Below, piece after piece: positions 37,217-60,547 of a stretch of 64,000 nucleotides of DNA. This stretch comes from an uncultured Alphaproteobacteria bacterium (GTDB lineage: Bacteria > Pseudomonadota > Alphaproteobacteria > RF32 > CAG-239). The notes beneath the pieces are model-generated. The model saw nothing but the letters and a program-made list of their open reading frames with translations. It did no database searches and was not told the DNA's origin. The position numbers and the translations under genes are program-made. The number at the start of each line of letters is the position of its first letter. Within the stretch, counting starts at the first letter, position 1. Location of the stretch: the NCBI GenBank assembly GCA_944391685.1, contig CALXUM010000008.1, forward strand, positions 13,273 through 77,272, in the 5' to 3' direction.

Positions 37217-37226
37217 GACACGCGCC

Positions 37227-42818: not shown

Positions 42819-42969
42819 GGTAAAGAAGTTGACATTCAACCTTATTTATTTTGTAAATCAGGTTAATGCTTTGAAAAATAAATAAAAAAATATTTTCAAA
42901 ATCTGTTTTACATTTATTTTCAAACACGACATTACAAAATTGTTTTTAATAATAAAAGGAAAATTTAAA

Positions 42970-43452: not shown

Positions 43453-43552
43453 AATATTAGTAAAAAAGTTACAAACGGGCTCATTTTTTTGCGTACATTC
43501 CCATTTTAACACGACATAATAAATATACTGTAAAAACAATGAAGTAATAAAA

Positions 43553-44065: not shown

Positions 44066-44068
44066 GCC

Positions 44069-45646
44069 ATGATTAGAAGAAAAAAGAAAATGCAAAACGA
44101 AAAATGCACCCAAGCTATTCTATTTGCTCGAGTATCATCTAAAAAGCAGAAGGATAAAGGTGTATCTCTTGATGTGCAAATGGAAACAATCACTAAATAC
44201 TGTCATGATAAAGGATTAAAAATTATCAAAGATTTTAGTATTGATGAAAGTTCGACTAAAGGGGAACGCAAACAATATCACGAAATGCTTGATTTTGCTA
44301 AAAGCTGTCTAGGTAAAGTTGCGATTGTTGTCAATTATGTAGATAGACTTCAACGTAATTATGACGATACCTATGAATTAAACAAATTACGTAAAGAGGG
44401 TAAAATTGAAGTCCATTTTTTACGAGAACAACTCATTATCCATAAAGATTCCAATTCTCTTGAAATAAACTTTTGGAATATGCATGTTTTAATGGCTAAC
44501 GCTCAAGTCAACAATATGATTGATAAAGTTAAAGCCAGTCAGGCAAAGAATTGGTCACTTGGTAAATGTCAAGGTTACGCTCCTTTGGGATACTTAAATA
44601 CAAAAGATGAAAATTATCGTTCAACCGTGATTTTAGATGAAGTTCGGGCTCCAATTATAACCAAACTGTTTGAAGAGTATGCAACCGGGAATCATTCTAT
44701 TGATTCAATTTGGCAACTTTCCAAGAATTTAGGATTATACACCAAGATGAAAAGCCGTAGAGGTAACTTTGTCAGCAAAAATACTATATATGATATTCTA
44801 ACCAATCCTTTCTATTATGGAGAGATGTGTATTAAAGGTGAATTTATGCCTCATGTCTATCCGCATATTGTTTCAAGAAGTTTGTTTGATAAAGTTCAGG
44901 AAATCTTTGCTCAAAACGGCAATCACAATCGAAATAATTCAGAAAACCAAGCAAAATATACTTATGCTTTCAGGGGACTGATTAAATGTAAAGAATGCGG
45001 AGGCTTAATTACTCCGGCAACGGCAATAAAGAAAAACGGCTTAAAATACAGACATCTCCGTTGTGCCAATTATAAAAAATGTTGTCATCAATCATCTGTC
45101 ATGGAATATGTTATTTTTGAACAGCTTGAAAAAGATGTATTTAGTAAATTATCCTTGCCATTAAATATGCAGGAACCACTTAAAGAACAAATTCTTCGTA
45201 GTTTAACCGATACATCTAAGTTAAACACAACCATAAAAATAAATGTCACAAAGAAAATCAACGAATTAAAGATTAAAGAAGATAAATTGCTTGATTTTTA
45301 TCTTGAAGGTAAATTAACGCAAGATATATACGATATGAAAAAAGCCAGTATAGATAAGGAAATAAAAGGTTTAGAAAATACTCAAGAAAAATATAAGACT
45401 ATTGATAACGACGCAAAAAATAAAATTGTCAACATATTCACCATAGCTGGAAACATCTCATACATCTTCCAACATGCCTCTCCCTCTCGCCAAAATGAAT
45501 TATTAAAAATGTTACTCAAAGATTGTCAACTTAATGGTAAACGGCTTGAATATACCTTAAGAAAACCTTTTGATATGCTTGTAAAAACACACAATGTCAA
45601 AGATTGGAAAGATATTGCTATTGAGATGATTGAAGATATTATCTGA
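44069..45646 (+). CDS. large serine recombinase
   Basis: Features: resolvase domain (AILFARVSSKKQ..DRLQR); recombinase domain (GYAPLGY); zinc-ribbon CKECGG...LRCANYKKC; C-terminal coiled coil. Confidence 0.85.
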   Translation: MIRRKKKMQNEKCTQAILFARVSSKKQKDKGVSLDVQMETITKYCHDKGLKIIKDFSIDESSTKGERKQYHEMLDFAKSCLGKVAIVVNYVDRLQRNYDDTYELNKLRKEGKIEVHFLREQLIIHKDSNSLEINFWNMHVLMANAQVNNMIDKVKASQAKNWSLGKCQGYAPLGYLNTKDENYRSTVILDEVRAPIITKLFEEYATGNHSIDSIWQLSKNLGLYTKMKSRRGNFVSKNTIYDILTNPFYYGEMCIKGEFMPHVYPHIVSRSLFDKVQEIFAQNGNHNRNNSENQAKYTYAFRGLIKCKECGGLITPATAIKKNGLKYRHLRCANYKKCCHQSSVMEYVIFEQLEKDVFSKLSLPLNMQEPLKEQILRSLTDTSKLNTTIKINVTKKINELKIKEDKLLDFYLEGKLTQDIYDMKKASIDKEIKGLENTQEKYKTIDNDAKNKIVNIFTIAGNISYIFQHASPSRQNELLKMLLKDCQLNGKRLEYTLRKPFDMLVKTHNVKDWKDIAIEMIEDII

Positions 45647-45788
45647 AATACTCCAAAATTTCAAATTCAACGACTATAACTCATCTATCACTTCTATGTA
45701 TACTCAAGAATTTATTTTTTACTGAATTTAAACCAATTATTTAAAATTTATAACATTATAATTTTGAATACATAGTGTGTAATAACTG

Positions 45789-46001
45789 TCATTTTTGTAT
45801 TAGAAATTCTAACTTATCCATTTTTTCACTTTCTTTCTCATCTAGTTTATAGCTGTTTACAAAACCACTAGTCATTACGTAGCCATTGTTTTCACCACAA
45901 TACGGACAATCAATATCTTCTTTTTCTTTTCCTCCCGGATATATATCTCCGCCAACAGAATAATCGAATAATTTACCGCATTTTTTACATTTAATAGACA
46001 T
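45789..46001 (-). CDS. small zinc-ribbon protein
   Basis: CKKCGK...CPYCGE, two CxxC pairs in 70 aa. Confidence 0.45.
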   Translation of the reverse strand: MSIKCKKCGKLFDYSVGGDIYPGGKEKEDIDCPYCGENNGYVMTSGFVNSYKLDEKESEKMDKLEFLIQK

Positions 46002-46544
46002 GATAACTCTCCTTATTAAACTTTATATGACATATATAGGTTTTAATATTCAATAACTCAAGCCTCTAGATAAAAATGCTAAAATTTACAATCATCATTA
46101 ATTCGCGTATTACACGACAAGTCCAGCCACAGAATACAAACCGTCAGAAATGACGGTTTTTTCTTTGTATATCAAGCACTTATACTGGTTCGGATGTTTA
46201 AAAGTCAAAATAGGCTTTTTTTGAGCAACATCCGAACTTTTTTATTGCCAATCTTTGTATTTCAATAGCTTACGGGATTTTAATCAATTTCGTATCTCAC
46301 CTGAAAGATATTATCCCTCCCCCAGACTCGATATTGTTTTTTTCAATTTATCGCCATCAATGACTTGAGGTTGATACATCAAAAACTTACGCACAGGTTG
46401 AATTTTTACCGCTCCAATTTAATAAACAATACGACAATATAACTTCGGAGTTCAAAAACTGTATAGCACAGCACATAGAAAGGCAAGGATGTCAAAGTCC
46501 TTGTCTTTTTTTTAACATAATGCCTCTGATGACAATATGTTACT

Positions 46545-47249
46545 TCATACAGCATAGTAACTATTTAATAATTTTTTTCTTTCTTTCCAATCTGGCATAT
46601 GAAGTTCTATAAAATTATAAAAATTTTTATCATGATACGGATATATTAGATGAGATAATTCATGAAGGACTATATACTCTATGCATAGCGGTGAAGCTTT
46701 ATAGAGAAATTCATTCATCGTAATAATTTGCTTAGAACGATTACAATTTCCCCAACAAGATTGCATTTTCCTTATTTTTAACTCTGGTTTTGCAATATGG
46801 TAGCTGCGAACGACGGGATATAATCTATCGAGAACATCACTAAAAAACGTATACATTTTTTGTTTTATATAAGAATTATATTCTTGCTGAATAAATTCTA
46901 AATTTTCTTTATCTTTGCAATAAATATTAATTGTCAAATCATCAAACTCTATATGAAAATTTTGAGATTGTGTTATATTAATTCTATAATGACGTCCCAA
47001 AAGTTGAACAGAACCACCATTTTTTAAAATATCAATTGATTTTACATTTTGGAGTTTTTTATATTTTTCTACTTTCTGAAGAATCCATGAACTTTTCTTA
47101 TGAAGAAAAGCCATAACATCTTTTTCTTCAACATTATCTGGAACAGAACAAGTCACAACACCATTACTTAAGACACGTAGATTAAAATTTTTAATTTTTT
47201 TCTTTTTAATCTCGATGCTGATATCTTTATTTAATTTATAAAAATCCAT
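46545..47249 (-). CDS. M48-like metallopeptidase (YgjP/DUF45 family), Type I R-M associated
   Basis: HExxH in VLHELSHLIYPYH. The ATG overlaps the hsdR TAA by 1 nt. Confidence 0.75.
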   Translation of the reverse strand: MDFYKLNKDISIEIKKKKIKNFNLRVLSNGVVTCSVPDNVEEKDVMAFLHKKSSWILQKVEKYKKLQNVKSIDILKNGGSVQLLGRHYRINITQSQNFHIEFDDLTINIYCKDKENLEFIQQEYNSYIKQKMYTFFSDVLDRLYPVVRSYHIAKPELKIRKMQSCWGNCNRSKQIITMNEFLYKASPLCIEYIVLHELSHLIYPYHDKNFYNFIELHMPDWKERKKLLNSYYAV

Positions 47250-50200
47250 TATAAATTACTCTTTGCTGTTGTAAGAATATCGTCTTCAATTCGATCCATC
47301 TGGTCCATAGACAATTCAATATCATTAGCATCTAGAAACTCAAAAATTTCATCTTCAATTTGTTGTTTAAGTTGATTTATCAATACATTATTGTGTTTCC
47401 ATCCTGGTTTCCGTGCACTTCTAATGATACTTTTGACTTTTGTTGCTAATTCTCCCATTTGTAAATCTATTGCATCATTTTCATTTATTGTAATTTTTTT
47501 ACTTATTTCTAGCTTCAAATTTCCATAAAATCCTTTGGCGTCATCATCATCTGTAATATTTGAAGGATATTTATTGCCAATAAAGCCTTTCTCATAATCA
47601 CTTTCAAGATTTTTCATCTGAGCTAAATAAGCTTCTTCATCTCTATTTTTATTATACTCATCAATAGTTTCATCAATTCTCTCTTTAAAAGTCTTATAAA
47701 AAATAGGATCTGAATATTGCTTTTCTGAGATAGAACTATACATTGCAGTTGCCATTGCTTCCGCCTTTGCTCTATCGGAAGGAAGTTTATCCAACTCTTT
47801 TTGCATACTTTCTTTATCACTAAGATATATCGGATTTATAACAATTTGGTCTGCATCTGCTGCTACAAATTGATTTAATAAATTACGAATAGTTGGCTCA
47901 TATTTAGAAAAATCAACCGTTTCTCCAAATCTCAATCTAACTGCACTTCTTAACTTTTGCAAATACACAAAGTCTTTTTGCATTTTTTTAATTTCATCAA
48001 GACCAATTCCTTTATAAATCTCATAATTACTAATTGCAGTATCTAAAGAATTTGAAAAATCTAATAATTTATTACTAAAATCTTCTCTAATATCCTTATC
48101 TTTAAACAGCAACTGAACTTCTTCTGCATCATCCGTATTATGCCCATCAAAAAACTTCATGACTTGTTCATATCTGGCATATAAGTCTTTTTTTACATCT
48201 TCTGGACCAAAAATTGTTTTTTGAATATCTTCCGCATCAAAACCATCCATACCTGATGTCTTATCCGTATATAAGTCCAATGCCGTATTCAAATTTGCAA
48301 AGATTCCATAAAAATCTACAATTTTTCCATTTTTCTTGGCAGGATAAACTCTATTAACCCTTGCTATTGCTTGCAATAAGTTATGCGTTTTCATCGGTTT
48401 ATCAACATATAAAGCTTGAGCAATTGGAGCATCAAAACCGGTAAGGAGTTTATCTTTTACAACCAAAATATCAACATCTTCACCATTGTTAAAACTATTT
48501 TTTGCCCAATCTTCATAAGCTTCATAATTTTGCCCAAACAATGGTTCAATTTCTTTCTTAAAGAACTGCGCAATTTTCTCTTTATCATCAGACAATAAGT
48601 TTTCTTCTCCCTCCTCTTTATTTTCAGGAGAAATAACAACAGCAGCTTTCAGGCCTAATTCTTTTAATAGATAATACAAATTTATAGCATTTACTCGAGA
48701 AGATTCGGCAACCATTGCCTTAAAACCTTTCGGCTGCACAAAACGCTGAAAATGTTCTTTAATAGCATAGGCCAAACAGGTTAATCTGGGCGTTGTTGAT
48801 GCAATTTTAGAAAACTTACTATATTTTCTCTTTAAATCTTCTTGTTGTTCCTTATCTAACCCTATTAAACTTTGTTCTAAATATTGATTAATTGCATCAC
48901 TAGTCGTTTTTTGCGGAATTTTTCTTCCTTCATATACCAATGGAACAATAACTTTATCTTCCTCTGCCTGATCAATTGTATAACTATCAATTAATGGACC
49001 TATTCGTTCAAAGGTGTTTAATTTTTCAGCTTTTAACAAAGGAGTTCCTGTAAAACCAATTTTCACAGCATTCGGCAAGACATCAAGCATAAAATTATGA
49101 AAATTACCACTTTGTGTTCTATGGCATTCATCAATTAGAATAAAAATATTTTTACTATCTACTTGAGTCTTCTGTTTTGCAGCCTTTTCAAATTTATTAA
49201 TAACCGCTGTAATTAAAGTTTCTCCTTCATCTTCCAGCAAGGTTATCAATCCCTTCCCTGTAGTAGCTCGAGTTGGGTGCATTTGAGTATTATTAAAATT
49301 ATCTCGCAATTGTTTATCTAAATTAATTCGATCATTAACCAAGATAAAACGAGGATTTTTAATACCACTCGCAGGATTTTCAGATAATGCCATAATTTTC
49401 TTCACAAGCATGACCATTGTCAAGGATTTACCACTACCTTGAGTATGCCAAATCACACCATTTCTGGTATTTTTATTATCTTCATTCAAAATACGCTTCA
49501 CAGCTTTCTGAATTCCAAAATATTGCTGATATCGCGTAATTTTTTTAATGTTATTATCATACAAGATAAAATATCGAACAATTTCAAAAAACCTTTGAAC
49601 AGATAACATTGAAATAATGCTTTTATCTTGCTCTTTTGGTGTTCTGCCGACAACCAAACGTTCTAATTCTGTTTTTAACCATTCGGAATCTTTTTCTTTC
49701 CACGGCACAAAAAACTCAGCTTTTGTTCCACAAGTACCATATTTGAAGGTATGTGGATTCATCGCAATCACAATCTGAGAAAATTTAAATAGTTGCGGAA
49801 TTTCATCAACTTTCCAATTTTTGATATTTTGTTTAATCCCCTCATCTACGCTAACGGCAGATTTTTTGCATTCGATAACAACCAAAGGAATACCATTGAC
49901 AGTTAAAACAATATCTGGCCTACGCTTGGAATGATCTAACTTTTGCACTGAGAATTCATCCGTTACACGCAAAATATTTTCTTCCGGATGCTCCCAATCA
50001 ATAAATTTCAAATCAAAAGAAGACTTTCCGCCATCATACAAATCTTCTTCATAGCTTTTTCCATAAAGCAATAAATCGTATATTTCTTTTGATGTTTTCA
50101 TTAATCCTGATTGCAAAGGGACATCAATATCTGAAATTGCTTTAGCTATATTGCTGGAAGAAAATTGAAATTTTTCATTTCTGTAGTCATATCTTTGCTT

Positions 50201-50371
50201 TTTTAAAAATGCTAATAAATCATCTTTCAAAATAACATTTGAAAGAGAACCTCTTTGCTTTTCAGCATCTTCGGGAGCAATATAATCCCATCCGAGTTTT
50301 GTCAGTAACTCAATTGCAGGATCTTGGCTCTCTGGTCTTTCGTTATATTGATAATGATTTAATGTTGTCAT
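47249..50371 (-). CDS. hsdR: Type I restriction enzyme R subunit
   Basis: Features: N-terminal nuclease region (RPDIVLTVNGIPLVVIECK); HTQGSGKSLT; LIDECHRTQSG; helicase C domain. Confidence 0.9.
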   Translation of the reverse strand: MTTLNHYQYNERPESQDPAIELLTKLGWDYIAPEDAEKQRGSLSNVILKDDLLAFLKKQRYDYRNEKFQFSSSNIAKAISDIDVPLQSGLMKTSKEIYDLLLYGKSYEEDLYDGGKSSFDLKFIDWEHPEENILRVTDEFSVQKLDHSKRRPDIVLTVNGIPLVVIECKKSAVSVDEGIKQNIKNWKVDEIPQLFKFSQIVIAMNPHTFKYGTCGTKAEFFVPWKEKDSEWLKTELERLVVGRTPKEQDKSIISMLSVQRFFEIVRYFILYDNNIKKITRYQQYFGIQKAVKRILNEDNKNTRNGVIWHTQGSGKSLTMVMLVKKIMALSENPASGIKNPRFILVNDRINLDKQLRDNFNNTQMHPTRATTGKGLITLLEDEGETLITAVINKFEKAAKQKTQVDSKNIFILIDECHRTQSGNFHNFMLDVLPNAVKIGFTGTPLLKAEKLNTFERIGPLIDSYTIDQAEEDKVIVPLVYEGRKIPQKTTSDAINQYLEQSLIGLDKEQQEDLKRKYSKFSKIASTTPRLTCLAYAIKEHFQRFVQPKGFKAMVAESSRVNAINLYYLLKELGLKAAVVISPENKEEGEENLLSDDKEKIAQFFKKEIEPLFGQNYEAYEDWAKNSFNNGEDVDILVVKDKLLTGFDAPIAQALYVDKPMKTHNLLQAIARVNRVYPAKKNGKIVDFYGIFANLNTALDLYTDKTSGMDGFDAEDIQKTIFGPEDVKKDLYARYEQVMKFFDGHNTDDAEEVQLLFKDKDIREDFSNKLLDFSNSLDTAISNYEIYKGIGLDEIKKMQKDFVYLQKLRSAVRLRFGETVDFSKYEPTIRNLLNQFVAADADQIVINPIYLSDKESMQKELDKLPSDRAKAEAMATAMYSSISEKQYSDPIFYKTFKERIDETIDEYNKNRDEEAYLAQMKNLESDYEKGFIGNKYPSNITDDDDAKGFYGNLKLEISKKITINENDAIDLQMGELATKVKSIIRSARKPGWKHNNVLINQLKQQIEDEIFEFLDANDIELSMDQMDRIEDDILTTAKSNL

Positions 50372-51321
50372 TTCATTTCTCTTTCTTCAAATGGTATTAA
50401 TTCATGTATATCATAAACATAATCAATCTGTTCCCCATTCTTAAATGGATAAGAAACGCCTAATTTTCCTTGATAGCTCTTTCTCCCTTCAAAAATAGGA
50501 ATATAAAAATCTTTACTATTTTCAACTTTATAATCTAATGCACTACGTGCTAAATTTGAGCAAACATCATTTTCATTATATAAAGACATAGGAGAATACC
50601 GCACTGCAAAAAGAATCAAATTTGCTGCAATTGCATTTATACAATTCTCTAGTGTTGCTAAAGGAAAATTTTTTTCTCTATCATGTTTTAATTTATTATA
50701 TGCTTCATACCAAGACAATGATTTCGCAGGTTTATCAGCATTCCAATTCTCAAATGGACTACATTTATAAGGATTAGCATATCCTACTAAAGAAATCTTA
50801 TATTTTGTTAAATCAACATATTTAAGTATTTCAATATAATCTTTCATTCGCTCATTTTTACCAAACTGGTATTTTTTAAGAGTGCTTTCTAAATCTGAGC
50901 AGGATAGAAACAGCAATTCTCTAATTTTATGGCTATAAGCTTGCAAGCCACTTTCTGAAGGCTCTACAAACAATAAAATCTCTTGTAGTTTCTGTATTAA
51001 AATTCCCAAATCTCTTTTTGCATGAAATAATTCAACTTGTTTAATATTAAGTTCTCTTTCTATATGGATATTCATCAAAGGTTTCCAAACATGTTTATAT
51101 TTCCAACCGATATCCATATCTTCTACTTTAGTTAGTGAATATTGAAATGCATTTTGAATCACTTTTTCAATATTATATTCTTTATCACAAATAAGAATAC
51201 TGCATATTTGTGGTGCATAATCAACAGCTGCTATTTGCAAAAAAACGTTTTGTTTCTTTGCATTTTCATATGCAATCACTCCAAAATCTTTATCTCGTGC
51301 AAAATAGACATCTGTTTTCAT
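50368..51321 (-). CDS. hypothetical protein embedded between hsdS and hsdR
   Basis: 317 aa. The stop overlaps the hsdR start by 4 nt, and the start lies 2 nt after the hsdS stop. No family recognised; the segment SWYEAYNKLKHDREKNF is noted. Confidence 0.5.
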   Translation of the reverse strand: MKTDVYFARDKDFGVIAYENAKKQNVFLQIAAVDYAPQICSILICDKEYNIEKVIQNAFQYSLTKVEDMDIGWKYKHVWKPLMNIHIERELNIKQVELFHAKRDLGILIQKLQEILLFVEPSESGLQAYSHKIRELLFLSCSDLESTLKKYQFGKNERMKDYIEILKYVDLTKYKISLVGYANPYKCSPFENWNADKPAKSLSWYEAYNKLKHDREKNFPLATLENCINAIAANLILFAVRYSPMSLYNENDVCSNLARSALDYKVENSKDFYIPIFEGRKSYQGKLGVSYPFKNGEQIDYVYDIHELIPFEEREMK

Positions 51322-51323
51322 TA

Positions 51324-52562
51324 TTAATTCACTTTCACTCTGATTTTGCCGGTAAGGAGTTGTTGCATCAGAGCTTTTTTCTCTTGTTTGAAAGCCTCAA
51401 GCTTTTTGTTTAAGAGCTCAATTTCTTCATCAGCTTTAGATAAAATCTCCGCAATAGCCTTTTGCTCTGCAAGGTCTGAAGGGATATATATATAAGATTT
51501 TAAAAATTCTGTTTTTGACAGATTAAATCTCGTAGCTCCTTGAGCTAACATATACATTGTTTTTCTTATTTGTTCTGAACGACACAAATATGCTGCATAA
51601 AAAGGAAGTAAAATTGAAAAATCATGTAGTCTAAAACCAAAACCAAAACTATTCAGATATGTTTCTTCTTTGGGCTCTTCTAACAATACAGATGATATTC
51701 CAACTTCATCGGGAGTTTCCGATGATGTCGTAAAAAATATATCACCATATTTAACTGTATTCTGATTTTCTCCATCCTTAATTGCAACTAGCTCAAACTG
51801 ATTAGTGTCGATAACAAAATTTTGGTAAATATTTAAATAAGGTATGTATGGTTTTCCATAACCAAAAGATTCTTTATCTTTACCACTTAATCCCGTGTAT
51901 GTTGTGCCAATATTCCCCAATTTGACTTCATGCCAAGGAGTGGAGAAGCCTTTGAGGCGGTGTTTGCCGGTGAGGAGTTGTTGCATTAAGGCTTTTTTCT
52001 GAATTTTCTTTTTTTCAATCAAAGCCGACAATTTTTCAATTCCATCATCCCAACAGCTCAAAATCCCCGCAATCTTCTCTTGCTCTGGCAAAGGTGGAAG
52101 TAGAAAGTTCAAATTAGATACATCCTTTTTTGATATTTCCAAGAAGGTACTACCACATGCTTTTCTTATAAATTGAAATTTATTATTTGCTATTAAGTAA
52201 TATAAATAGATGATATTACTCCCTTCATATAAAATAATATTTTTAAAACCTTGATTCGTGGACATGGGAACTGCATTTATACAGCAATCACCTACCGTAG
52301 CTCTAGTACAAATAATTAATGAATTTTTGGGTAGCAACTTAGCTGAACTGTTTTTCAATCCTTCTTTAGTTATGGTGCGTTCAGTTTGATAAACATATTT
52401 TGTTGGTAATTTAGTTACCTCTGAAGGTGTTAACCAATAAATATCGCCATCCCAAAAAGTAGAATTTTCTGTATCTGGAGTTCCTCCTGATACTATATCT
52501 CCTAATTCTCCTAGCTTTTTAACACTCCACCCCTCAGGTATCTTCTGCTCAATCTTTGTCAT
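51324..52562 (-). CDS. hsdS: Type I restriction enzyme S subunit (two TRDs)
   Basis: Duplicated conserved spacer KKALMQQLLTGKHRLKGF / KKALMQQLLTGKIRVKVN. N-terminal WSVKKLGELGDIVSGGTP. Confidence 0.9.
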   Translation of the reverse strand: MTKIEQKIPEGWSVKKLGELGDIVSGGTPDTENSTFWDGDIYWLTPSEVTKLPTKYVYQTERTITKEGLKNSSAKLLPKNSLIICTRATVGDCCINAVPMSTNQGFKNIILYEGSNIIYLYYLIANNKFQFIRKACGSTFLEISKKDVSNLNFLLPPLPEQEKIAGILSCWDDGIEKLSALIEKKKIQKKALMQQLLTGKHRLKGFSTPWHEVKLGNIGTTYTGLSGKDKESFGYGKPYIPYLNIYQNFVIDTNQFELVAIKDGENQNTVKYGDIFFTTSSETPDEVGISSVLLEEPKEETYLNSFGFGFRLHDFSILLPFYAAYLCRSEQIRKTMYMLAQGATRFNLSKTEFLKSYIYIPSDLAEQKAIAEILSKADEEIELLNKKLEAFKQEKKALMQQLLTGKIRVKVN

Positions 52563-53283
52563 TAAATAAATTCCTTGGTTTATTATCTATTAAGTCAATA
52601 ATTTCATATTTTGCTACTGATTTATCTGGATTATAATAGACATTAATATCTACTACATAACTTTGTTTAAACGGTTCAGATGTCTCTGAAAAATTAAATA
52701 ATTGTTTCACATCTAGCGATTTAAAAGAAACTTTTTTAACATTTTCATCCAAAGATTTTATGATACCACTGCAATTATTATTTTTTAGCGTATCAATCTT
52801 AGAAAATACTAAGACTTGGCTTTCAAACTTTTCTACAAGAGGTTCAATATTTTTAGTGTCATCCTCTTTAAAATCCGTATTTAAAGTAATTGCTCCTAGA
52901 GTTGAAGTATCGTAATTCTTTCCATTATAATTGATATTAGTAATGTTAACTTTGGAATTAACCGCCAATATCGGTTGAACCTGCCTAATTTCGTATTCGT
53001 TTATAGGAATATTGTTACTTATTTTTTCAAAAACTCCATCTAGCGGTTCTAAAACAGAAGCAATCGTAATCAGAGCATTTCCTAATTTTCGAAATTTTGG
53101 TATGAAAGATCCTGTCCTTGCTTCATAAATTTCAAGTTCCACTCCATGAGCTAGAAAAAAGTTTTCTAATCGACTTAAGTATGCCGATAAATCTTTCAAA
53201 TCTAAAGGATTTTCTTTATCAAATGGTATTCTAATTTCAAAAAAATCATCTTTATCTATTTTATTTTCTACTGAATTTGTCAT
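52549..53283 (-). CDS. hypothetical protein embedded between hsdM and hsdS
   Basis: 244 aa. Overlaps the hsdS start by 14 nt and the upstream ORF by 4 nt. No motif recognised. Confidence 0.5.
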   Translation of the reverse strand: MTNSVENKIDKDDFFEIRIPFDKENPLDLKDLSAYLSRLENFFLAHGVELEIYEARTGSFIPKFRKLGNALITIASVLEPLDGVFEKISNNIPINEYEIRQVQPILAVNSKVNITNINYNGKNYDTSTLGAITLNTDFKEDDTKNIEPLVEKFESQVLVFSKIDTLKNNNCSGIIKSLDENVKKVSFKSLDVKQLFNFSETSEPFKQSYVVDINVYYNPDKSVAKYEIIDLIDNKPRNLFNDKD

Positions 53284-53807
53284 AAAGAATCCTTTTCTTC
53301 TCCATCTATTACAAATTTAAATGAAGGGTTGTCTTTACCTAATAAAACCCATACTCCTATAAGATATTTATAATCTCCATTTGGGTCGGTTAAATCTTTC
53401 AATTTTTTGATATCTTTGCTCGATTTATTATTCCACCATCCTTTAAATTCTATGGCAATTTTGTTTTCCTCATTGCTCCACATTCTATGTAAAATAATAT
53501 CGGGACGTACTCCTTTAGAAAAATTTGGCGTAGCTTTTACAGAATCGCAATTTTTGTTATATTCAGAATTCAAATCTAAATCTGCATATTCTGACGCTGA
53601 AACTTCTTGAAACAACTGAGCGTATATTAACGCGGCAACACACTGTTCAAGTCCTTTTATTTTAATAACTTTAGGATAATTGCTATAAATTTTGTTTACT
53701 GATGTCTTTAGTAAATTAAACAGTCCTTTTCTTTCTTTTGCTATATCTACTGAAGACATCTCACAATTTTTCATTTTTTCCTCCTTCTTGTCCTTTAAAA
53801 ATCTCAT
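53280..53807 (-). CDS. PD-(D/E)xK nuclease-like hypothetical protein
   Basis: GVRPDIILH...KIAIEFKGWW fits the PD...ExK signature. The start codon is uncertain, with internal Mets nearby. Confidence 0.5.
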   Translation of the reverse strand: MRFLKDKKEEKMKNCEMSSVDIAKERKGLFNLLKTSVNKIYSNYPKVIKIKGLEQCVAALIYAQLFQEVSASEYADLDLNSEYNKNCDSVKATPNFSKGVRPDIILHRMWSNEENKIAIEFKGWWNNKSSKDIKKLKDLTDPNGDYKYLIGVWVLLGKDNPSFKFVIDGEEKDSL

Positions 53808-53849
53808 CGGATTTTTTCACCAATATATCCCATACTTGTTGGGGAATAA

Positions 53850-54329
53850 TCATTGTTTGCCCCCGTCACTTTGTAAAATCCCTTTATTTTCTAGTTTACA
53901 CAAAAAACTTAAGACTTTTTCCTTCGTCACTAAATCATCACGATAAGGCACCTTAGTATTATAAGCAACATATTGGTAAAAGTATGAATCTTCTTTAAAA
54001 TCAATGCTTCGCGCATTGTGTTCTTCAAAAATTCGATTATATAAAAATCTCTTTTCTTGTACTGTGCAGTTTTTCAATCTGTTGAGCAATATTTTCTCGT
54101 AAACTAGAGAAAATACAAACCGTAAGATTGCACCACCTAATATAGTCCAACAAACAATTGCTAAAACTAAGGCTACAAAAAATAAGAAATCAAAAGATAA
54201 CTCAAAACTCCATAATTTTACGTAACCAAACGTTCTATATTTTCCGACTATACACACCACAGTACAAGTTAAAGCAACAATGATACATTTGTATACGTCA
54301 GTAAATATATCAAAGAAGATTTTAATCAC
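53850..54329 (-). CDS. small two-TM membrane protein (architecture reminiscent of SieB-type exclusion proteins)
   Basis: Hydrophobic helices CIIVALTCTVVCIVG and FLFFVALVLAIVCWTILGGAILRFVF, then a soluble tail with LKNCTVQEKRFLYNRIF. Starts 1 nt after the hsdM stop. Confidence 0.45.
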   Translation of the reverse strand: MIKIFFDIFTDVYKCIIVALTCTVVCIVGKYRTFGYVKLWSFELSFDFLFFVALVLAIVCWTILGGAILRFVFSLVYEKILLNRLKNCTVQEKRFLYNRIFEEHNARSIDFKEDSYFYQYVAYNTKVPYRDDLVTKEKVLSFLCKLENKGILQSDGGKQ

Positions 54330-54330
54330 T

Positions 54331-55884
54331 CTACACTCCTAATTCTTTCAGATATGCAGACATTTTGTCCTGAACGGCACTAAGTTGTAATTCCAAATCG
54401 GCAATTTCAGCTTTAACAGCTGCCAAATCAATTTCTTCTTCCTCTTCAAAGGTATCTACATAACGCGGGATATTAAGGTTAAAGTCGTTTTCTTTAATCT
54501 CGTCCAAGCTGGCTAAATGCGAGAATTTCGCTACTTCTTGCCGATTATCATAGACTTCTCTTATTTTTTGAATGCTTTGTGGCGTCAGTACATTTTGAGC
54601 ACTGTCTTTGATATAATTTTCCTTATCTGCAGCATTAATAAACAACACATCTTTATTAGGACGGTTTTTCTTTATTACCATAAGGCAGGCCGGAATAGAA
54701 GTTCCAAAAAATAGGTTTTCTGGTAACCCAATAACAGCATCTAATAAATTTTCTTCTATAACTTTTCTTCTAATTGCTCCTTCTGAGGCACCTCGAAAAA
54801 GCACGCCATGAGGAACAACAGCAACCATTCGTCCATTTGGTTTCAGGCTATGAATCATGTGTAATAAGAATGCCCAATCTCCTTTACTTGCAGGAGGCAC
54901 TCCCCATTCAAAGCGATTATATGGATCTAAAGACGCTTCCATCTGGAACTTTTTATCTTTTTTATTATTACCATCTTCATTTCCGCCTGGATTAAAACCC
55001 TCGGCCCATTTATCTTGAGAAAATGGCATATTTGCAACAACTACATCAAATTGCATCAAATTGCCATCATCATCTAAATGTGCCGGATTAGATAGCGTAT
55101 TACCCCAAGCCAATTTTGCATCCATAATACCATGAATAAACATATTCATTTTACCCATAGACCATGATGAGCCATTCATCTCCTGTCCATAGATTGACAC
55201 ATTTTTTACTCCGGCATATTTTGCAGCTCTAATCAACAAGGAGCTTGAGCCGGAGGTTGGATCATAAATACTATCTCCGGCTTTAGGCTTAGCAATTTGA
55301 GCCATAAGTTCGGAAACCATCATCGGCGTGAAGAATGAACCTGCTTTTTTACCCGCTTGGCTTGCAAACTCGCCAATCATATATTCAAAAGCATCACCCA
55401 ACACATCTGATGGAACTTGTCCCTCTCCTACTTCAATTTGGGAGGGCCTTAAATCAAGGGAGCGAAAATCTTCAAGCAAATTTCTTAAAGTGGTAATTTT
55501 TTGTTTTTGATTACCTAAATTAGACTGACTATTAAAATCAACATTTCTAAAAACACCATTCAGTTGAATGTTGCTGTCTTCAATAGCTCTTAACGCAGCA
55601 TTAATTTTTTGCCCAATTTCAGCATCATATCTGTTATCATACAAATAATCAAAAGTCTGCTCTTGCTTCAACACAAATGGCATGCGGGATTTTGCACGTT
55701 CAAGTCTGATTTCATCTGGATATTTTTTTTGTAATTCAGCCAGATTTTCAGCATATGTATCTGTTAAATATTTTACAAACAGCATAGATAATACATAGTC
55801 TTTATAATTTGCTGCATCTATTTGCCCTCTAAAGGTATTTGCTCCACGCCATAATGCTGCTTTTATGTCTTCTTTAGTGGTCAT
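54331..55884 (-). CDS. hsdM: Type I restriction enzyme M subunit (N6-adenine methyltransferase)
   Basis: HsdM N-terminal domain (LWRGANTFRG). Motif I DPTSGSSSLL. Motif IV VVANMPFS. Confidence 0.92.
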   Translation of the reverse strand: MTTKEDIKAALWRGANTFRGQIDAANYKDYVLSMLFVKYLTDTYAENLAELQKKYPDEIRLERAKSRMPFVLKQEQTFDYLYDNRYDAEIGQKINAALRAIEDSNIQLNGVFRNVDFNSQSNLGNQKQKITTLRNLLEDFRSLDLRPSQIEVGEGQVPSDVLGDAFEYMIGEFASQAGKKAGSFFTPMMVSELMAQIAKPKAGDSIYDPTSGSSSLLIRAAKYAGVKNVSIYGQEMNGSSWSMGKMNMFIHGIMDAKLAWGNTLSNPAHLDDDGNLMQFDVVVANMPFSQDKWAEGFNPGGNEDGNNKKDKKFQMEASLDPYNRFEWGVPPASKGDWAFLLHMIHSLKPNGRMVAVVPHGVLFRGASEGAIRRKVIEENLLDAVIGLPENLFFGTSIPACLMVIKKNRPNKDVLFINAADKENYIKDSAQNVLTPQSIQKIREVYDNRQEVAKFSHLASLDEIKENDFNLNIPRYVDTFEEEEEIDLAAVKAEIADLELQLSAVQDKMSAYLKELGV

Positions 55885-55886
55885 TC

Positions 55887-56519
55887 TTAATTATCTCCCG
55901 TTGTCATTTTTTTCAAAATCTCTTTAAAATACAAATTCTTACAATTTTGTAATTTACTTTCGATTGCTTTTTGTTGTTGCACCAATTTATAAAAATCAAT
56001 TATTTTTTTCTGTGTTTGTATATCTGGTATGTTCAACTCCATATCTGCAAGACTAGAAACACTCAATGTTCTAAGCTGTGAACCTTTGCTTGCCTTTTCT
56101 ATTTGATTACAAAAATATGGTTGTTGCATCAAAACAAATAAATACTCCACAAGAATTTGTTCACTATCAACTCGAATTATTGCAAACTGAGATGGCACAA
56201 TCAAATTTTCCTGCTCTTTTGTCACTAATCCAACTTTAATAGGACTGAATAAACGCATCAAAATATCATTTTTTTGCGTAAAATATTGGAAGGGTATTTT
56301 CTCCGTTACTTCAAAAGTATCGCATTCTGAAATATTCAACATCCCGTCATCACTTATTGCCCTTAATGTAACAGACTTATATATCGCCTTATCTGCCAGT
56401 CCAATATGAGTATACCCTAGTTCTTTTGGCTTCTCACCATACCTCGAAAGAACCAGTCCAACATTAAGTTTAGCAATTTTGCCTAATTTAACTTTTTTCA
56501 AATCAACTTCTCCAAACAA
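55887..56519 (-). CDS. half-size (single-TRD) Type I S-subunit-like protein
   Basis: 210 aa with a TTG start. One TRD followed by the helical spacer QKKIIDFYKLVQQQKAIESKL. Ends 2 nt before the hsdM start. Confidence 0.55.
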   Translation of the reverse strand: MFGEVDLKKVKLGKIAKLNVGLVLSRYGEKPKELGYTHIGLADKAIYKSVTLRAISDDGMLNISECDTFEVTEKIPFQYFTQKNDILMRLFSPIKVGLVTKEQENLIVPSQFAIIRVDSEQILVEYLFVLMQQPYFCNQIEKASKGSQLRTLSVSSLADMELNIPDIQTQKKIIDFYKLVQQQKAIESKLQNCKNLYFKEILKKMTTGDN

Positions 56520-56558
56520 GGAAATAGATGTGGGGCGAATAAATCGCCCCTAATTATG

Positions 56559-56768
56559 TTAACTTTCATGCACAGAATTGCAGCAAAAGAAGCATCCGTC
56601 AGCCTTAGCATAACGCATTTTAGCCACAGCTAAAGCATCAGACGCACTTTCAAATTCGCCTAAATATGCCACATCTTTTGCCATTGCCAACCATCTACAA
56701 CCTTCCACGTGAACTTCATGGTCACCGTTGTATTGCGCTGAATTATTTACAAAATATTTCTTTTTCAT
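56559..56768 (-). CDS. small conserved Cys/His-rich protein
   Basis: NGDHEVHVEGCRWL...GCFFCCNSVH. I recall this pattern from a widespread small-protein family but cannot name it. Confidence 0.5.
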   Translation of the reverse strand: MKKKYFVNNSAQYNGDHEVHVEGCRWLAMAKDVAYLGEFESASDALAVAKMRYAKADGCFFCCNSVHES

Positions 56769-57866: not shown

Positions 57867-57990
57867 CCATAGGCCTCAGATATGGAGTATGGAAGTAGGG
57901 TACACCGGCACCTTCCCGCCAGGGATACCTCCATGGTAGTTTTTTGATAAGATTCTTTAATACCCACCTATAGCCGGGTAAAAAAGGCCT
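57867..57990. ncRNA. candidate structured RNA or leader (unassigned)
   Basis: A GC-rich patch in an AT-rich spacer. Nested pairs atggag/ctccat and ggaag/cttcc. Palindromic aggcct at both ends. Confidence 0.2.
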
Positions 57991-58750: not shown

Positions 58751-60547
58751 ATGAAAGGAAATAAAATGAATAATACCGTATCAACTTTAACACAAACTCA
58801 AAATTTAGCTGATATTGACCAAAATCCAGCAATTGAGACACCTAATATTATCGACGTCGAATATACTATTACGAGTGAAGATATTCCGCATGAGTTATCT
58901 GAATCTAAAGAACTTGTTGCCGTTAATGACAATAACTTCCCTACTCTTCCTACAGATCCGACAGCATTGCCCAAATATATTACTTTAGCAAAAAAATATA
59001 TTGAAGCTGAAACAAAGTTGTTAAATGGGTTAAAATTAACACCCAATAGATACCATCTTGCTTTAAGAACAACACAAGAGCATGCTTCTTTACTATTGTT
59101 AGCTGAACTAAGATTAAGCGAAATGTTAAAAGGAATTAAAACTTGCCGTGGCATGAGAACGGATATCAATAAGAAAAAAATGCTTTCTAAATTTAACCAC
59201 TTGGTAAAATCAAAGAAAGAAATCATAAAACAGGATTTCAAGTTATCGCCTAGACAAGCCAGAGATATTGAAAAACTAACGCCAGAATGCATCAAAAAAG
59301 CCTTAGAAGTAGCCAAAGAAAACAATACTATTCCAACCAGATCTCTTGCTTTATCCCAATTGCCCAAAAGGGAAAAAGATGAAACCGGCAATGTAGTATT
59401 TACTCCAATTGAAGAAACTGAAGATAAAGTATTTTCATCAGAAGAACCGCTTTATTATACTTCTTTGTTTGCTAATGTCGGAATTGGAACTTACTACCTT
59501 CACAATCAAAATATCCATTGTGCCGTAGCCAATGAATTACCAAAAGAAAGAGCCGAATGGCACGATTATATTTATCCAAATGCTGAAATGGTTCAAGGAG
59601 ACATAACTGATCCAAAGGTATATAACAAACTTGTAGAATTGCATAAACAACATGGTTGTAAACTTGTTTTGGCTTCTCCTCCGTGCCAATCATTCAGCAA
59701 AGCCAACACCTCCAAAGGAAAGGTTTCTGATATTCGCACACCTTTATTCAGAACAAACTTAGACTTTATTCTCGATACAGACACTGATTATGCATTGATT
59801 GAAAATGTTCCTGATTTTTTAAATGCTAAACCTAAACAATTAAAAGAACTGTTAGGAGACTTAACAATTGGGGAATATATCAAACAAGAATTAGAAAATA
59901 TGGGATATATCGTTAACATTGGAGTTTATAGTGCTGCTGATTATGGAACAGCTCAAGATAGAAAACGTGCCATTATCCTTGCTGCTAAAAAAGAGTTAGG
60001 TTTATGGAAATTCCCTAAAAAAGATAAATTCAGAAAGATTTTATTTGAAGCAATCGGAGATTTACCATCTTTGGAACCAGGACAACAAGACCCTGAAAGA
60101 CCAATGCACTATGCTTTAGATTTACCGGCTTGTCAAATTGAGTTCCTCAAACATACCCCTACGGCATCTTCTGCTTGGCAAAATAAAAAGGAATACCAAC
60201 CGGTTAATATTGATGGAAGTGAAAGCTGTGCAAACTTTAAAGCCAGTTTTTCTAGAAAAGATTGGAACAAACCATCTAATACAATTTTAACTGATAATGG
60301 TAGCATTGGAGGAATAATAAATATACATCCTGGTCGCCCATTATCTGATGGAACATATTCTGATTGCAGACCTTTATCTATTCTTGAGCTCTTTAGAGTA
60401 ACAGGACTTCCCGATGATTATCCTGTACCTGGAAAGTTTATTAAAAACGATAAATTAATCAGAGAGGTTATCGGAGAATGCTTTGCTCCACTTCATGTGG
60501 CAAGACTAATGACAACAATTCCTAATAAAAACAAAGTAAAAGCATAA
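58751..60547 (+). CDS. C5 cytosine DNA methyltransferase with N-terminal extension
   Basis: Motif I LFANVGIG. Motif IV ASPPCQSFS. Motif VI IENVPDF. Motif VIII AQDRKR. The likely true start is the ATG at 58766, after aaagga. Confidence 0.85.
   Translation: MKGNKMNNTVSTLTQTQNLADIDQNPAIETPNIIDVEYTITSEDIPHELSESKELVAVNDNNFPTLPTDPTALPKYITLAKKYIEAETKLLNGLKLTPNRYHLALRTTQEHASLLLLAELRLSEMLKGIKTCRGMRTDINKKKMLSKFNHLVKSKKEIIKQDFKLSPRQARDIEKLTPECIKKALEVAKENNTIPTRSLALSQLPKREKDETGNVVFTPIEETEDKVFSSEEPLYYTSLFANVGIGTYYLHNQNIHCAVANELPKERAEWHDYIYPNAEMVQGDITDPKVYNKLVELHKQHGCKLVLASPPCQSFSKANTSKGKVSDIRTPLFRTNLDFILDTDTDYALIENVPDFLNAKPKQLKELLGDLTIGEYIKQELENMGYIVNIGVYSAADYGTAQDRKRAIILAAKKELGLWKFPKKDKFRKILFEAIGDLPSLEPGQQDPERPMHYALDLPACQIEFLKHTPTASSAWQNKKEYQPVNIDGSESCANFKASFSRKDWNKPSNTILTDNGSIGGIINIHPGRPLSDGTYSDCRPLSILELFRVTGLPDDYPVPGKFIKNDKLIREVIGECFAPLHVARLMTTIPNKNKVKA

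What the first reader, a model, noticed from the sequence alone, without database searches (positions are those of the whole stretch)
46545..56519. Nine-ORF co-directional Type I R-M operon in which four ORFs are passengers
Reading the minus strand from 56519 to 46545, the order is as follows: half-hsdS, hsdM, TM protein, PD-ExK protein, unknown-244, hsdS, unknown-317, hsdR and a YgjP-like M48 peptidase. Every junction is either an overlap or a gap of at most 42 nt. Type I loci are known to host passenger genes, for example prrC inside the EcoprrI locus and the rlo genes in Campylobacter hsd loci. The YgjP-type peptidase is a recurrent hsdR neighbour. Four passengers in one operon is dense, and suggests R-M activity is functionally wired to other effectors.
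Basis: partly seen in the sequence, partly recalled or inferred. Interest (0 to 1): 0.65.

Follow-up and report, generated by a model that had tools for sequence, protein, structure and literature searches.

The report
Restriction operon carrying swappable defence genes
This is a real nine-gene Type I restriction-modification operon from an uncultured gut bacterium, in which three inserted genes sit in a slot that related strains fill with other anti-phage genes and a fourth is a fixed partner of unknown fold, making it a clear but not unprecedented case of defence genes nested inside a restriction system.

Summary
The nine co-directional minus-strand ORFs exist as described. HsdM, HsdS, HsdR (closest solved relative EcoR124I, Type IC) and the YgjP-like peptidase are intact.

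The four "passengers" fall into two classes.

- **Swappable cargo.** TM159, p175 and p244 lie between hsdM and hsdS. A near-identical locus (L002) carries three different genes there, including a CAP12-type TIR protein. Homology breaks 12 nt after the hsdM stop and resumes at the hsdS start. In 29 related loci this slot is never empty. It holds 1-5 genes, including RhuM, Fic, OLD-like ATPase, kinase, AbiJ_NTD4, SieB-like, DUF4238 and DUF6119.
- **Fixed partner.** p317 lies between hsdS and hsdR, the position of prrC. It keeps that position in almost all close relatives, across two HsdR lineages only 33% identical and across several gut phyla.

p317 has a confident predicted fold with no PDB, Pfam or PADLOC match. 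It belongs to a superfamily of about 2,500 clusters. The distant members stand alone, often beside defence genes, and one sits in the P2-phage defence hotspot. p175 is a PD-(D/E)xK protein by motif and fold.

Embedding of genes in Type I systems is already published, so this is a new member of a known kind. p317 is the part worth testing.

The parts
56559..56768 (-). u69: a 69-aa Cys/His-rich protein just upstream. It is conserved in the same position in related loci and may be the first gene of the unit.
   Evidence: tblastn 55-62% identity upstream of the half-S in L014-L019. No Pfam hit.
56532..56550 (.). GC-rich 7-bp hairpin between u69 and the half-S, with a poor T-tract. It leaves no room for a promoter before the half-S start.
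55887..56519 (-). Half-size HsdS-like protein with one TRD and one helical region. The likely start is TTG 56501 (204 aa).
   Evidence: PADLOC Specificity_I 2.9e-17. PDB S-subunits 7vru_C 2e-7 and the Esub1 half-S dimer 7e-3. A homologous 184-211 aa gene lies upstream of hsdM in 21 loci.
54331..55884 (-). hsdM, the N6-adenine methyltransferase subunit.
   Evidence: Pfam N6_Mtase 2e-101 and HsdM_N. TIGR00497. EcoR124II M 1.8e-63.
53850..54329 (-). TM159: cargo gene 1, a two-TM membrane protein with a soluble C-terminal domain.
   Evidence: Hydropathy. Homologous to the C-terminal part of a DUF4238 fusion protein (L010) and to a 292-aa slot protein (L027). Absent from L002.
53280..53807 (-). p175: cargo gene 2, a small PD-(D/E)xK nuclease-fold protein. 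The likely start is 53774 (164 aa).
   Evidence: Invariant E43, D92, E109-x-K111 in 32 homologues. AF2 pLDDT 92. Foldseek 3ijm_A prob 1.0, then Cas4, MGME1, DrdV and NucC. It lies between hsdM and hsdS, abutting hsdS, in 4 of 5 independent contexts.
52549..53283 (-). p244: cargo gene 3, a rare protein of unknown function that overlaps the hsdS start by 14 nt.
   Evidence: Only 2 clusters in 5.8 billion proteins. Homologues in L032, L033 and L041 are also directly upstream of hsdS.
51324..52562 (-). hsdS, the full two-TRD specificity subunit with an internal conserved-region repeat.
   Evidence: Pfam Methylase_S, two stretches. Direct repeat 51332-51382 / 51950-52000. TRDs are swapped between otherwise identical loci.
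50368..51321 (-). p317: the fixed accessory gene in the prrC position. It belongs to an uncharacterised superfamily, and its predicted fold has no solved match.
   Evidence: AF2 pLDDT 90. No PDB or BFVD fold match. No Pfam or PADLOC hit. Order hsdS-p317-hsdR in 23 of 27 genome loci and in all close metagenome relatives. 2,528 representative clusters.
47249..50371 (-). hsdR, the restriction/translocase subunit, with the PD..ExK, GSGKS and DECH motifs intact.
   Evidence: Pfam HSDR_N, SWI2_SNF2, T1R_D3. TIGR00348. Its only PDB sequence relatives are EcoR124I/II HsdR. Motifs read from the translation.
46545..47249 (-). YgjP-like (DUF45 / SprT-WLM-like) zinc metallopeptidase, overlapping the hsdR stop.
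   Evidence: Pfam YgjP-like 4e-45 and SprT-like 7.7e-6. HELSH motif. It follows hsdR in essentially every related locus.
46123..46503 (.). Conserved 3' flank with two terminator-like hairpins (46484-46503 and 46138-46159). Homology to island-free relatives ends at 46123.

Best explanation
The region is a Type IC-like restriction-modification operon of an uncultured low-GC gut alphaproteobacterium that also serves as a carrier for other defence genes.

**Conserved skeleton.** (u69)-halfS-hsdM-[cargo slot]-hsdS-p317-hsdR-YgjP. This skeleton is shared by two divergent hsd lineages and several gut phyla.

**Cargo slot.** The hsdM-hsdS slot always holds 1-5 unrelated, mostly single-gene modules. 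In this window they are a two-TM membrane protein, a small PD-(D/E)xK nuclease-fold protein and a rare 244-aa protein. I infer that the modules are expressed from the operon's promoter by read-through and translational coupling. I also infer that they are exchanged by homologous recombination, using the conserved hsdM 3' end and the conserved parts of hsdS, p317 and hsdR as arms. That is the same process that shuffles the TRDs. The modules most likely act as independent anti-phage genes that cover what restriction misses.

**p317.** It sits where prrC sits in the prr locus. It is retained, with allelic swapping, in nearly all close relatives, while its distant relatives stand alone in defence and mobile contexts. 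I infer it is a defence effector that this clade has made dependent on the R-M complex. The most likely form is a latent protein released or activated when the Type I enzyme is inhibited or engaged.

**Shown:** gene identities, synteny, breakpoints, the p175 fold, and the absence of known domains in p317. **Inferred:** co-transcription, defence function of the cargo, and any physical coupling of p317 to the enzyme.
For: - **Gene identities.**
- **Cargo replacement with sharp breakpoints.** Against L002, homology breaks at 54319 and resumes at 52562. Only the TRD differs in L001.
- **Breakpoint at the p317/hsdR junction in L013.** p317 shows 56-82% nt identity against 96-100% in hsdR.
- **Slot never empty.** M-S gap 693-3037 bp with 1-5 ORFs in 29 loci.
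- **Cargo families are largely defence-associated.** RhuM, Fic+wHTH, DUF6119, OLD-like AAA_15+TOPRIM, CAP12 TIR, SieB-like, Ser/Thr kinase, DUF3644, AbiJ_NTD4, DUF3800, DUF4238, and Shedu SduA_C between p317 and hsdR in L031.
- **The three window cargo genes occur independently of each other**.
- **p317 synteny.** 23 of 27 genome loci and all 10 close metagenome relatives.
- **p317 identity tracks host group more than hsd lineage.** It is 85% in L009, where hsdR is 34%.
- **Distant relatives (30-42% identical) are never next to hsd genes.** They sit beside Eco57I/ResIII R-M, Schlafen-AlbA2, AAA_15/21, KAP NTPases and recombinases.
- **A 33%-identical homologue is gp01 of the P2-like Salmonella phage SEN8, between cos and gpQ**. 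This is the defence hotspot defined in PMC9122126.
- **Published precedents.** The prr locus order is hsdM-hsdS-prrC-hsdR, with PrrC latent on EcoprrI (PMC3014915). TgvAB is embedded in a V. cholerae Type I system (PMC11411939). 'Guilt-by-embedding' covers Type I systems (bioRxiv 10.1101/2024.01.29.577857).
Against: - No expression data. A 75-nt gap before p175 could hold an internal promoter.
- No passenger has a demonstrated function, and p244 and TM159 have no informative domain.
- p317 lacks the ABC-ATPase and recognisable nuclease domains of PrrC. Its only structural hints are HEPN toxins at E>1, TM about 0.46, which are not significant.
- p317 alleles recombine freely between hsd backbones whose HsdR is only 33% identical. 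This argues against a finely co-adapted protein-protein interface.
- Two close relatives (L029, L030) are not in a Type I locus.
- Most related loci are MAG or metagenome contigs, so mis-binning cannot be excluded when assigning hosts.
Confidence: 0.62

Rival explanations
1. All four passengers are functionally wired to the Type I enzyme, as PrrC is. Each would be a latent effector silenced by the R-M complex and triggered when phage proteins disable restriction.
For: Tight junctions and overlaps with hsdS and hsdR. p175 and p244 homologues nearly always abut hsdS and overlap its start. The PrrC precedent.
Against: The three M-S genes are replaced wholesale in a locus with 98-100% identical hsdM, p317 and hsdR. 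They occur in any combination, on hsd backbones down to 29-32% identity (L039). One p175 homologue lies in a NACHT/CHAT island with no hsd genes. Embedded systems tested so far, such as TgvAB, work when cloned alone.
Confidence: 0.15
2. p317, and perhaps the half-S and YgjP, are accessory or regulatory parts of the R-M enzyme itself rather than defence effectors. Possible roles are assembly, control of restriction after acquisition, or clearing stalled complexes.
For: p317, the half-S and YgjP form a conserved skeleton with hsdRMS across lineages and phyla. YgjP has SprT/WLM-like similarity. The half-S resembles Esub1, a homodimeric S-like protein proposed to be a DNA-binding regulator (PMC11754733).
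Against: The great majority of the p317 superfamily is free-standing, away from any hsd genes, and often in defence or mobile contexts including a phage defence hotspot. That is not expected of an R-M subunit. Most Type I systems function without such a gene.
Confidence: 0.18
3. The passengers are selfish or neutral hitchhikers, such as addiction modules or remnants, that accumulate in a recombination-prone interval and give the host no defence benefit.
For: Some slot contents elsewhere resemble toxin-antitoxin-type genes (Fic, DUF4160). p244 is extremely rare.
Against: The slot is never empty in 29 loci. All ORFs are intact and translationally coupled. Many slot families have experimental or strong genomic defence links: TIR, OLD-like, AbiJ, SduA, and DUF4238, which was shown to protect against T7 in PMC9122126.
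Confidence: 0.1
4. The half-S plus the full hsdS form a phase-variable specificity switch (shufflon) driven by the nearby serine recombinases.
For: Two S-type genes lie in one locus, and a large serine recombinase gene is 900 bp downstream.
Against: The two S genes are co-directional. They share no DNA repeats, direct or inverted, and no significant protein similarity. The recombinases belong to a 14-kb island that is absent from otherwise identical loci.
Confidence: 0.02

Closest known systems
E. coli prr locus (EcoprrI Type IC R-M with the embedded anticodon nuclease PrrC)
   Same: The gene order hsdM-hsdS-X-hsdR matches, with X tightly packed between S and R. The hsd genes are closest to the Type IC enzyme EcoR124I among solved structures. 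X is almost always R-M-linked in its clade, while more distant relatives are free-standing, as with PrrC versus RloC (PMC3458546 abstract).
   Different: p317 has no ABC-ATPase domain and no Walker A motif. It has no detectable similarity to PrrC-type domains in Pfam or PADLOC. Silencing by the R-M complex is untested. The window also has a second, variable slot, a half-S and a YgjP gene, none of which is listed in the gene order given for the prr locus.
Campylobacter jejuni hsd loci with rlo/mlo genes (Miller et al. 2005, Microbiology 151:337; cited in PMC11411939)
   Same: Extra ORFs lie between hsdM and hsdS and between hsdS and hsdR in a co-directional operon, with strain-to-strain variation. 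The genome is also low-GC.
   Different: I could not compare sequences because the rlo/mlo proteins were not at hand. The domain types reported for them (as I recall, ATPase, DUF262-type RloF, RloC) did not appear in the window's passengers. The window's clade comes from gut Alphaproteobacteria, Melainabacteria and others, not Campylobacter.
Embedded defence systems ('guilt-by-embedding', Payne et al. 2024; TgvAB in Vibrio cholerae VPI-2 Type I R-M)
   Same: Defence genes are nested co-directionally inside a Type I R-M operon. Many embedded families are unannotated. The same families also occur non-embedded.
   Different: None of the four window passengers, nor distant p317 relatives, matches any model in PADLOC-DB v2.0.0. 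The clade here shows a fixed skeleton with one always-filled slot and one always-present accessory, which the parts of that paper I read (abstract and two sections) do not mention.
PD-(D/E)xK nuclease superfamily (for p175)
   Same: The catalytic E...PD...ExK constellation is invariant. The predicted fold matches restriction-endonuclease-like proteins (3ijm, Cas4 SSO0001, MGME1, DrdV nuclease domain, NucC).
   Different: There is no Pfam family (AHJR-like only at E=0.1). It is a very small stand-alone protein (about 157 aa) with a conserved N-terminal helical hairpin. Substrate and partners are unknown.

Membership tests
Type I restriction-modification system | HsdM with HsdM_N and N6-adenine MTase domains, including an NPPF-type motif | tested here: met
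   Pfam N6_Mtase 2e-101 and HsdM_N 4e-23. TIGR00497 above its cut-off. 'NMPF' and 'DPTSGSSSLL' read in the translation.
Type I restriction-modification system | HsdS with two TRDs separated by conserved helical regions | tested here: met
   Two Methylase_S stretches. Internal 51-nt repeat of the conserved regions.
Type I restriction-modification system | HsdR with an N-terminal PD-(D/E)xK nuclease and SF2 translocase motifs | tested here: met
   HSDR_N, SWI2_SNF2, ResIII, T1R_D3. TIGR00348 495 bits. PDIV...IECK, GSGKS and DECH in the translation.
Type I restriction-modification system | Active bipartite m6A methylation and ATP-dependent restriction | not testable with these tools
   Needs a methylome or biochemistry.
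PrrC-type R-M-embedded anticodon nuclease (for p317) | Gene located between hsdS and hsdR of a Type I locus | tested here: met
   The prr locus order is from PMC3014915.
PrrC-type R-M-embedded anticodon nuclease (for p317) | N-terminal ABC-type NTPase domain | tested here: not met
   No P-loop motif in the sequence. No AAA/ABC hit in Pfam, PADLOC or NCBIfam.
PrrC-type R-M-embedded anticodon nuclease (for p317) | C-terminal HEPN-type RNase domain with an R-x4-6-H motif | tested here: inconclusive
   The only fold hints are HEPN toxins 7ae8 and 1wwp at E>1, TM about 0.46. The conserved 'Y-N-x-x-K-H' resembles RNxxxH but lacks the Arg.
PrrC-type R-M-embedded anticodon nuclease (for p317) | Held latent by physical association with the R-M complex and activated by an anti-restriction protein | not testable with these tools
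   Needs co-purification and phage or Ocr/Stp challenge.
PD-(D/E)xK nuclease superfamily (for p175) | Conserved acidic/lysine catalytic motif on the core beta-strands, plus the restriction-endonuclease-like fold | tested here: met
   Invariant E43, D92, E109, K111. Foldseek 3ijm_A prob 1.0, TM 0.52-0.57, followed only by PD-(D/E)xK nucleases.
SieB superinfection-exclusion family (for TM159) | Match to Pfam PF14163 above its cut-off | tested here: not met
   No hit for TM159 even at E<=5. Its homologue in L010 reaches only E=0.0067, below the cut-off. A profile of the TM159 group hits a SieB-positive slot protein (L012) only at E=0.004 in a small database.
YgjP-like (PF01863) metallopeptidase | Full-length Pfam match and an HExxH zinc motif | tested here: met
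   154.8 bits against a cut-off of 26. 'HELSH' in the translation.
Phase-variable hsdS inverton/shufflon | Inverted repeats shared by oppositely oriented hsdS copies, with a dedicated recombinase | tested here: not met
   Both S genes are co-directional and share no repeats. The recombinases belong to a separate 14-kb island.
PADLOC known or candidate defence systems (for the four passengers) | Match to a PADLOC-DB v2.0.0 model | tested here: not met
   No hits, apart from p175 to PD-Lambda-3_A at E=0.017. No hits for ten distant p317 relatives.

The most novel reading that the evidence does not exclude
p317 may define a large, unannotated anti-phage protein superfamily with a fold that has no solved counterpart. 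Its gut clade may have become a dedicated guard of Type I restriction enzymes, a PrrC-like 'second line' built from an entirely different protein. It would fire when phage anti-restriction proteins disable the enzyme. Its alleles would be shuffled together with hsdS between co-resident R-M backbones.
Probability: 0.25. Interest if true: 0.7.

Novelty: new member of a known kind. Interest (0 to 1): 0.45.

Why it matters
Defence genes nested in Type I R-M operons are an established source of new anti-phage systems. This clade offers a clean natural experiment.

- The same backbone carries different cargo in near-identical strains. That gives matched controls for testing each cargo gene, including three unannotated ones.
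- p317 is the most useful lead. It has a high-confidence model with no structural or family match. It belongs to about 2,500 sequence clusters. It sits in the same position as the only mechanistically understood R-M-guarded effector, PrrC, and it has a phage-borne relative in a proven defence hotspot.
- If p317 senses inhibition of restriction, that would generalise the PrrC principle beyond anticodon nucleases.

If none of this holds, the locus is still a well-documented ordinary example of embedding.

Tried and rejected
- **HEPN assignment for p317.** The Foldseek hits to HEPN toxins are not significant. Profile searches against PDB sequences found nothing. There was no Pfam hit for 39 family members or 10 distant relatives, even at lax thresholds. 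It is kept only as a lead.
- **BFVD fold search for p317.** It found only one uncharacterised gut-phage fragment.
- **SieB identity for TM159.** Not supported directly.
- **Phase variation between the half-S and hsdS.** No shared repeats and no protein similarity.
- **Structured RNA in the 2.2-kb upstream region.** No Rfam match at E<=0.1. The GC-rich patch 57900-57960 folds no better than shuffles, z=0.43.
- **Internal promoters and terminators.** The counts do not exceed the shuffled controls, so the consensus scan is uninformative either way.
- **A trio-level system (TM159+p175+p244).** Rejected because each gene occurs without the others.
- **p244.** Too few homologues for a useful structure model or motif analysis.
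- **First metagenome scan.** The attempt with a very divergent alignment failed for lack of a conserved stretch. It was repeated with a narrower alignment.

Full report
**Observation.** The minus strand of 46545-56519 carries nine consecutive ORFs exactly as listed.

- Family searches identify a half-size HsdS-like protein (PADLOC 2.9e-17; Pfam Methylase_S just under its cut-off).
- They also identify HsdM, a full two-TRD HsdS, HsdR and a YgjP-like zinc peptidase.
- HsdR keeps its PD..ExK, GSGKS and DECH motifs, and YgjP keeps HELSH.
- Among solved structures, the only sequence relatives of HsdR are EcoR124I/II, and HsdM matches the EcoR124II M protein at 1.8e-63. The system is therefore Type IC-like.
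- The other four ORFs (159, 175, 244 and 317 aa) match nothing in Pfam, NCBIfam or PADLOC-DB v2.0.0.
- Junctions are overlaps or a few nucleotides.

There are two corrections. The half-S probably starts at TTG 56501. The 175-aa ORF probably starts at ATG 53774, behind a GAAGGAGG site. The largest gap is therefore 75 nt. The consensus scan gives no internal terminator of any strength, and its counts do not exceed the shuffled controls. Co-transcription is therefore plausible but untested.

**Where it comes from.** The exact 317-aa protein occurs on 11 gut-metagenome contigs. The closest genome records are uncultured gut Alphaproteobacteria MAGs. One of them (L013) has an HsdR 99.8% identical to the window's.

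**Two kinds of passenger.** Locus L002 has hsdM 98.5%, p317 100%, hsdR 99.9% and YgjP 100% identical to the window. Between hsdM and hsdS, however, it carries a 97-aa protein, a DUF7508 protein and a CAP12-type TIR protein in place of the window's three genes.

- At the DNA level, identity stops 12 nt after the hsdM stop (54319). It resumes for 58 nt at the hsdS start (52562).
- It then skips each TRD, returns in the central conserved region, and is continuous from 51490 onward.
- L001 differs from the window only in one TRD.
- L013 has hsdR at 96-100% nt identity but p317 at only 56-82%, with the break at the p317/hsdR junction.

The whole hsdM-to-hsdR interval is therefore recombination-prone. 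Within it the M-S genes are replaceable, while p317 is always kept, in different alleles.

**The clade.** An alignment-based scan of one genome per species found 27 loci. In 23 of them the order is hsdS-p317-hsdR-YgjP.

- These loci fall into two hsd lineages. One is window-like, with HsdR 75-100% identical. The other has HsdR only 33% and HsdM 45% identical.
- They come from MAGs labelled Alphaproteobacteria, Gastranaerophilales/Melainabacteria, Clostridia and Elusimicrobia.
- Three of the four loci where p317 is not beside hsd genes come from a Treponema MAG (L030, a truncated copy), a Fusobacterium MAG (L035) and a Melainabacteria MAG (L034). The fourth (L029) is an uncultured proteobacterium MAG.
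- p317 identity follows host group more than hsd lineage. It is 85% in an alphaproteobacterial locus of the other lineage and about 65% in melainabacterial loci of the same lineage.
- A homologous 184-211-aa half-S gene precedes hsdM in all 21 loci where that flank is present.
- In 29 loci holding hsdM, hsdS and p317, the M-S interval is never empty. It measures 693-3037 bp and holds 1-5 ORFs.

The slot contents include RhuM, Fic+wHTH, DUF4160 with a DSP-like phosphatase, DUF7508, DUF6119, an OLD-like AAA_15+TOPRIM protein, a TIR protein and SieB-like membrane proteins. They also include a Ser/Thr kinase, DUF3644, AbiJ_NTD4, DUF3800 and DUF4238. One locus has a Shedu SduA_C protein between p317 and hsdR. 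Three cargo genes plus p317 is therefore ordinary for this clade.

**The window's cargo.**

- **TM159** has two hydrophobic segments and a soluble tail. It is homologous to the C-terminal part of a DUF4238 fusion protein in L010 and to a 292-aa slot protein in L027. A SieB relationship is only hinted at.
- **p175** belongs to a family of 69 clusters with invariant E43, D92 and E109-x-K111. Its model (pLDDT 92) matches a restriction-endonuclease-like protein (3ijm_A, prob 1.0), followed by Cas4, MGME1, DrdV and NucC. In four of five independent contexts it lies between hsdM and hsdS with its stop overlapping the hsdS start, including in loci that lack p317 and YgjP. The fifth context is a NACHT/CHAT island.
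- **p244** is very rare, with two clusters in the large database. In L032, L033 and L041 it also lies directly upstream of hsdS, without p175 or TM159.

The three are therefore separate modules, not one system.

**p317.** The AlphaFold model is confident (pLDDT 90, pTM 0.87). It has an N-terminal beta domain, a helical core (about residues 87-261) and C-terminal beta hairpins.

- Nothing in the PDB or BFVD matches significantly. The best meaningful hints are HEPN toxins at E>1.
- A profile search of 1.84 billion representatives finds 2,528 clusters at E<=1e-3, mostly about 330-aa proteins that share the helical core.
- Across the superfamily the invariant residues are G72, W79-x-P81, P121, H131, R134, E143/E145, D161-Y162, P189-F190, W193, W204-Y205, Y208-N209, K212-H213 and Y273-x-P275.
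- The 'YNxxKH' segment resembles the HEPN RNxxxH motif with Tyr in place of Arg. This is my reading and is unproven.
- Ten distant members have no Pfam or PADLOC match.

A metagenome scan returned 80 loci. All 10 close relatives with flanking sequence lie hsdS-p317-hsdR. None of the roughly 65 distant relatives (30-42% identity) is next to hsd genes. Sampled neighbours of the distant ones include an Eco57I/ResIII enzyme, a Schlafen-AlbA2 protein, AAA_15/21 ATPases, KAP NTPases and tyrosine recombinases. Homologues also occur on Klebsiella, Chryseobacterium and Rhizobium plasmids.

One homologue is gp01 of the P2-like Salmonella phage SEN8, between cos and the portal gene. That cos-proximal interval is the experimentally defined defence hotspot of P2-like phages (PMC9122126).

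**Mechanism.** I commit to the following.

- The locus is a working Type I R-M that doubles as a carrier. The M-S slot holds independent anti-phage genes that use the operon's expression and travel with it. They are exchanged by homologous recombination on the conserved hsd segments.
- p317 is a defence effector of a new family that this clade has tied to the R-M, most likely in a PrrC-like latent form.
- The PrrC parallel rests on position (the prr order is hsdM-hsdS-prrC-hsdR, with PrrC latent on EcoprrI; PMC3014915). It also rests on near-obligate linkage in the clade and on free-standing distant relatives.
- It is weakened by the lack of any PrrC-like domain and by free allele exchange between backbones with 33%-identical HsdR.
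- The half-S may give a second, palindromic specificity. Alternatively, like the homodimeric S-like protein Esub1 (PMC11754733), it may be a DNA-binding regulator. I cannot decide between these.

**Comparison and novelty.** Genes embedded in Type I systems are well known.

- Examples are PrrC, the Campylobacter rlo/mlo genes and TgvAB (PMC11411939).
- A systematic survey of Type I, BREX and DISARM systems found 17,432 embedded genes in 3,231 families, and in each host system more than half of the embedded genes have no clear function (bioRxiv 10.1101/2024.01.29.577857).

The window is a new member of that kind. Its specific points of interest are the fixed skeleton, the always-filled slot, cross-phylum spread, and p317 as a large unannotated family with an unmatched fold.

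**Surroundings.** Homology to island-free relatives ends at 46123, and in those relatives it continues directly into tRNA-Gln (window 31973-32047). The window therefore carries a roughly 14-kb insertion (32048-46122). It encodes serine recombinases, an MmeI-like Type IIG enzyme, an HNH protein and a C5 methyltransferase. This insertion is unrelated to the operon.

Noticed in passing
window 32048-46122: A roughly 14-kb island is inserted between tRNA-Gln (31973-32047) and the R-M locus. It is absent from L001, L002 and L013, where the R-M flank abuts the tRNA. It encodes a large serine recombinase (44069-45646), a second small resolvase-like ORF (42940-43452), an MmeI-like Type IIG R-M enzyme (39256-42384), an HNH protein (37790-39259) and a C5 DNA methyltransferase (33474-35429).
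   Followed up: partly
window 58751-60547 (+): A 598-aa C5 cytosine DNA methyltransferase lies divergently upstream of the operon region and is conserved in L001-L004. No partner endonuclease was identified. The 211-aa ORF at 60585-61220 has no Pfam hit.
   Followed up: no
window 56559-56768 (-) and hairpin 56532-56550: A 69-aa Cys/His-rich protein with no family is conserved upstream of the half-S in melainabacterial loci (55-62% identity). It is followed by a GC-rich hairpin that leaves no room for a promoter before the half-S. The unit may therefore have ten genes, with the hairpin acting as an attenuator or processing site.
   Followed up: partly
L125 (Salmonella phage SEN8, NC_047753.1) 128-1126: gp01 of this P2-like phage is a 33%-identical member of the p317 superfamily. 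It sits between cos and the portal gene next to an HNH endonuclease, which is the known P2 defence hotspot.
   Followed up: partly
L031 10952-12160: In 'Candidatus Enterousia onthequi' a Shedu-type SduA_C protein is inserted between p317 and hsdR. This shows that a second junction of the operon can also take cargo. Several loci carry an extra 115-125-aa or 209-356-aa gene between hsdS and p317.
   Followed up: partly
L002 7350-8820: The near-identical sister locus carries a 97-aa protein, a DUF7508 protein and a CAP12/Pycsar-type TIR protein in the M-S slot. DUF7508 also accompanies the p244 homologue in L041, which suggests that DUF7508 is a recurrent slot module.
   Followed up: no
window 57900-57960: A GC-rich patch (up to 60% GC in a 30% GC region) lies in the non-coding stretch upstream of the 169-aa ORF. 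It is conserved only in the near-identical loci. There is no Rfam match, and folding is no better than shuffles.
   Followed up: yes
L014-L019 versus the window: HsdM (78-80%) and HsdR (75-76%) are highly similar between the alphaproteobacterial window and Gastranaerophilales MAGs. This points to recent transfer of the whole operon between gut phyla, provided the MAG binning is correct.
   Followed up: no
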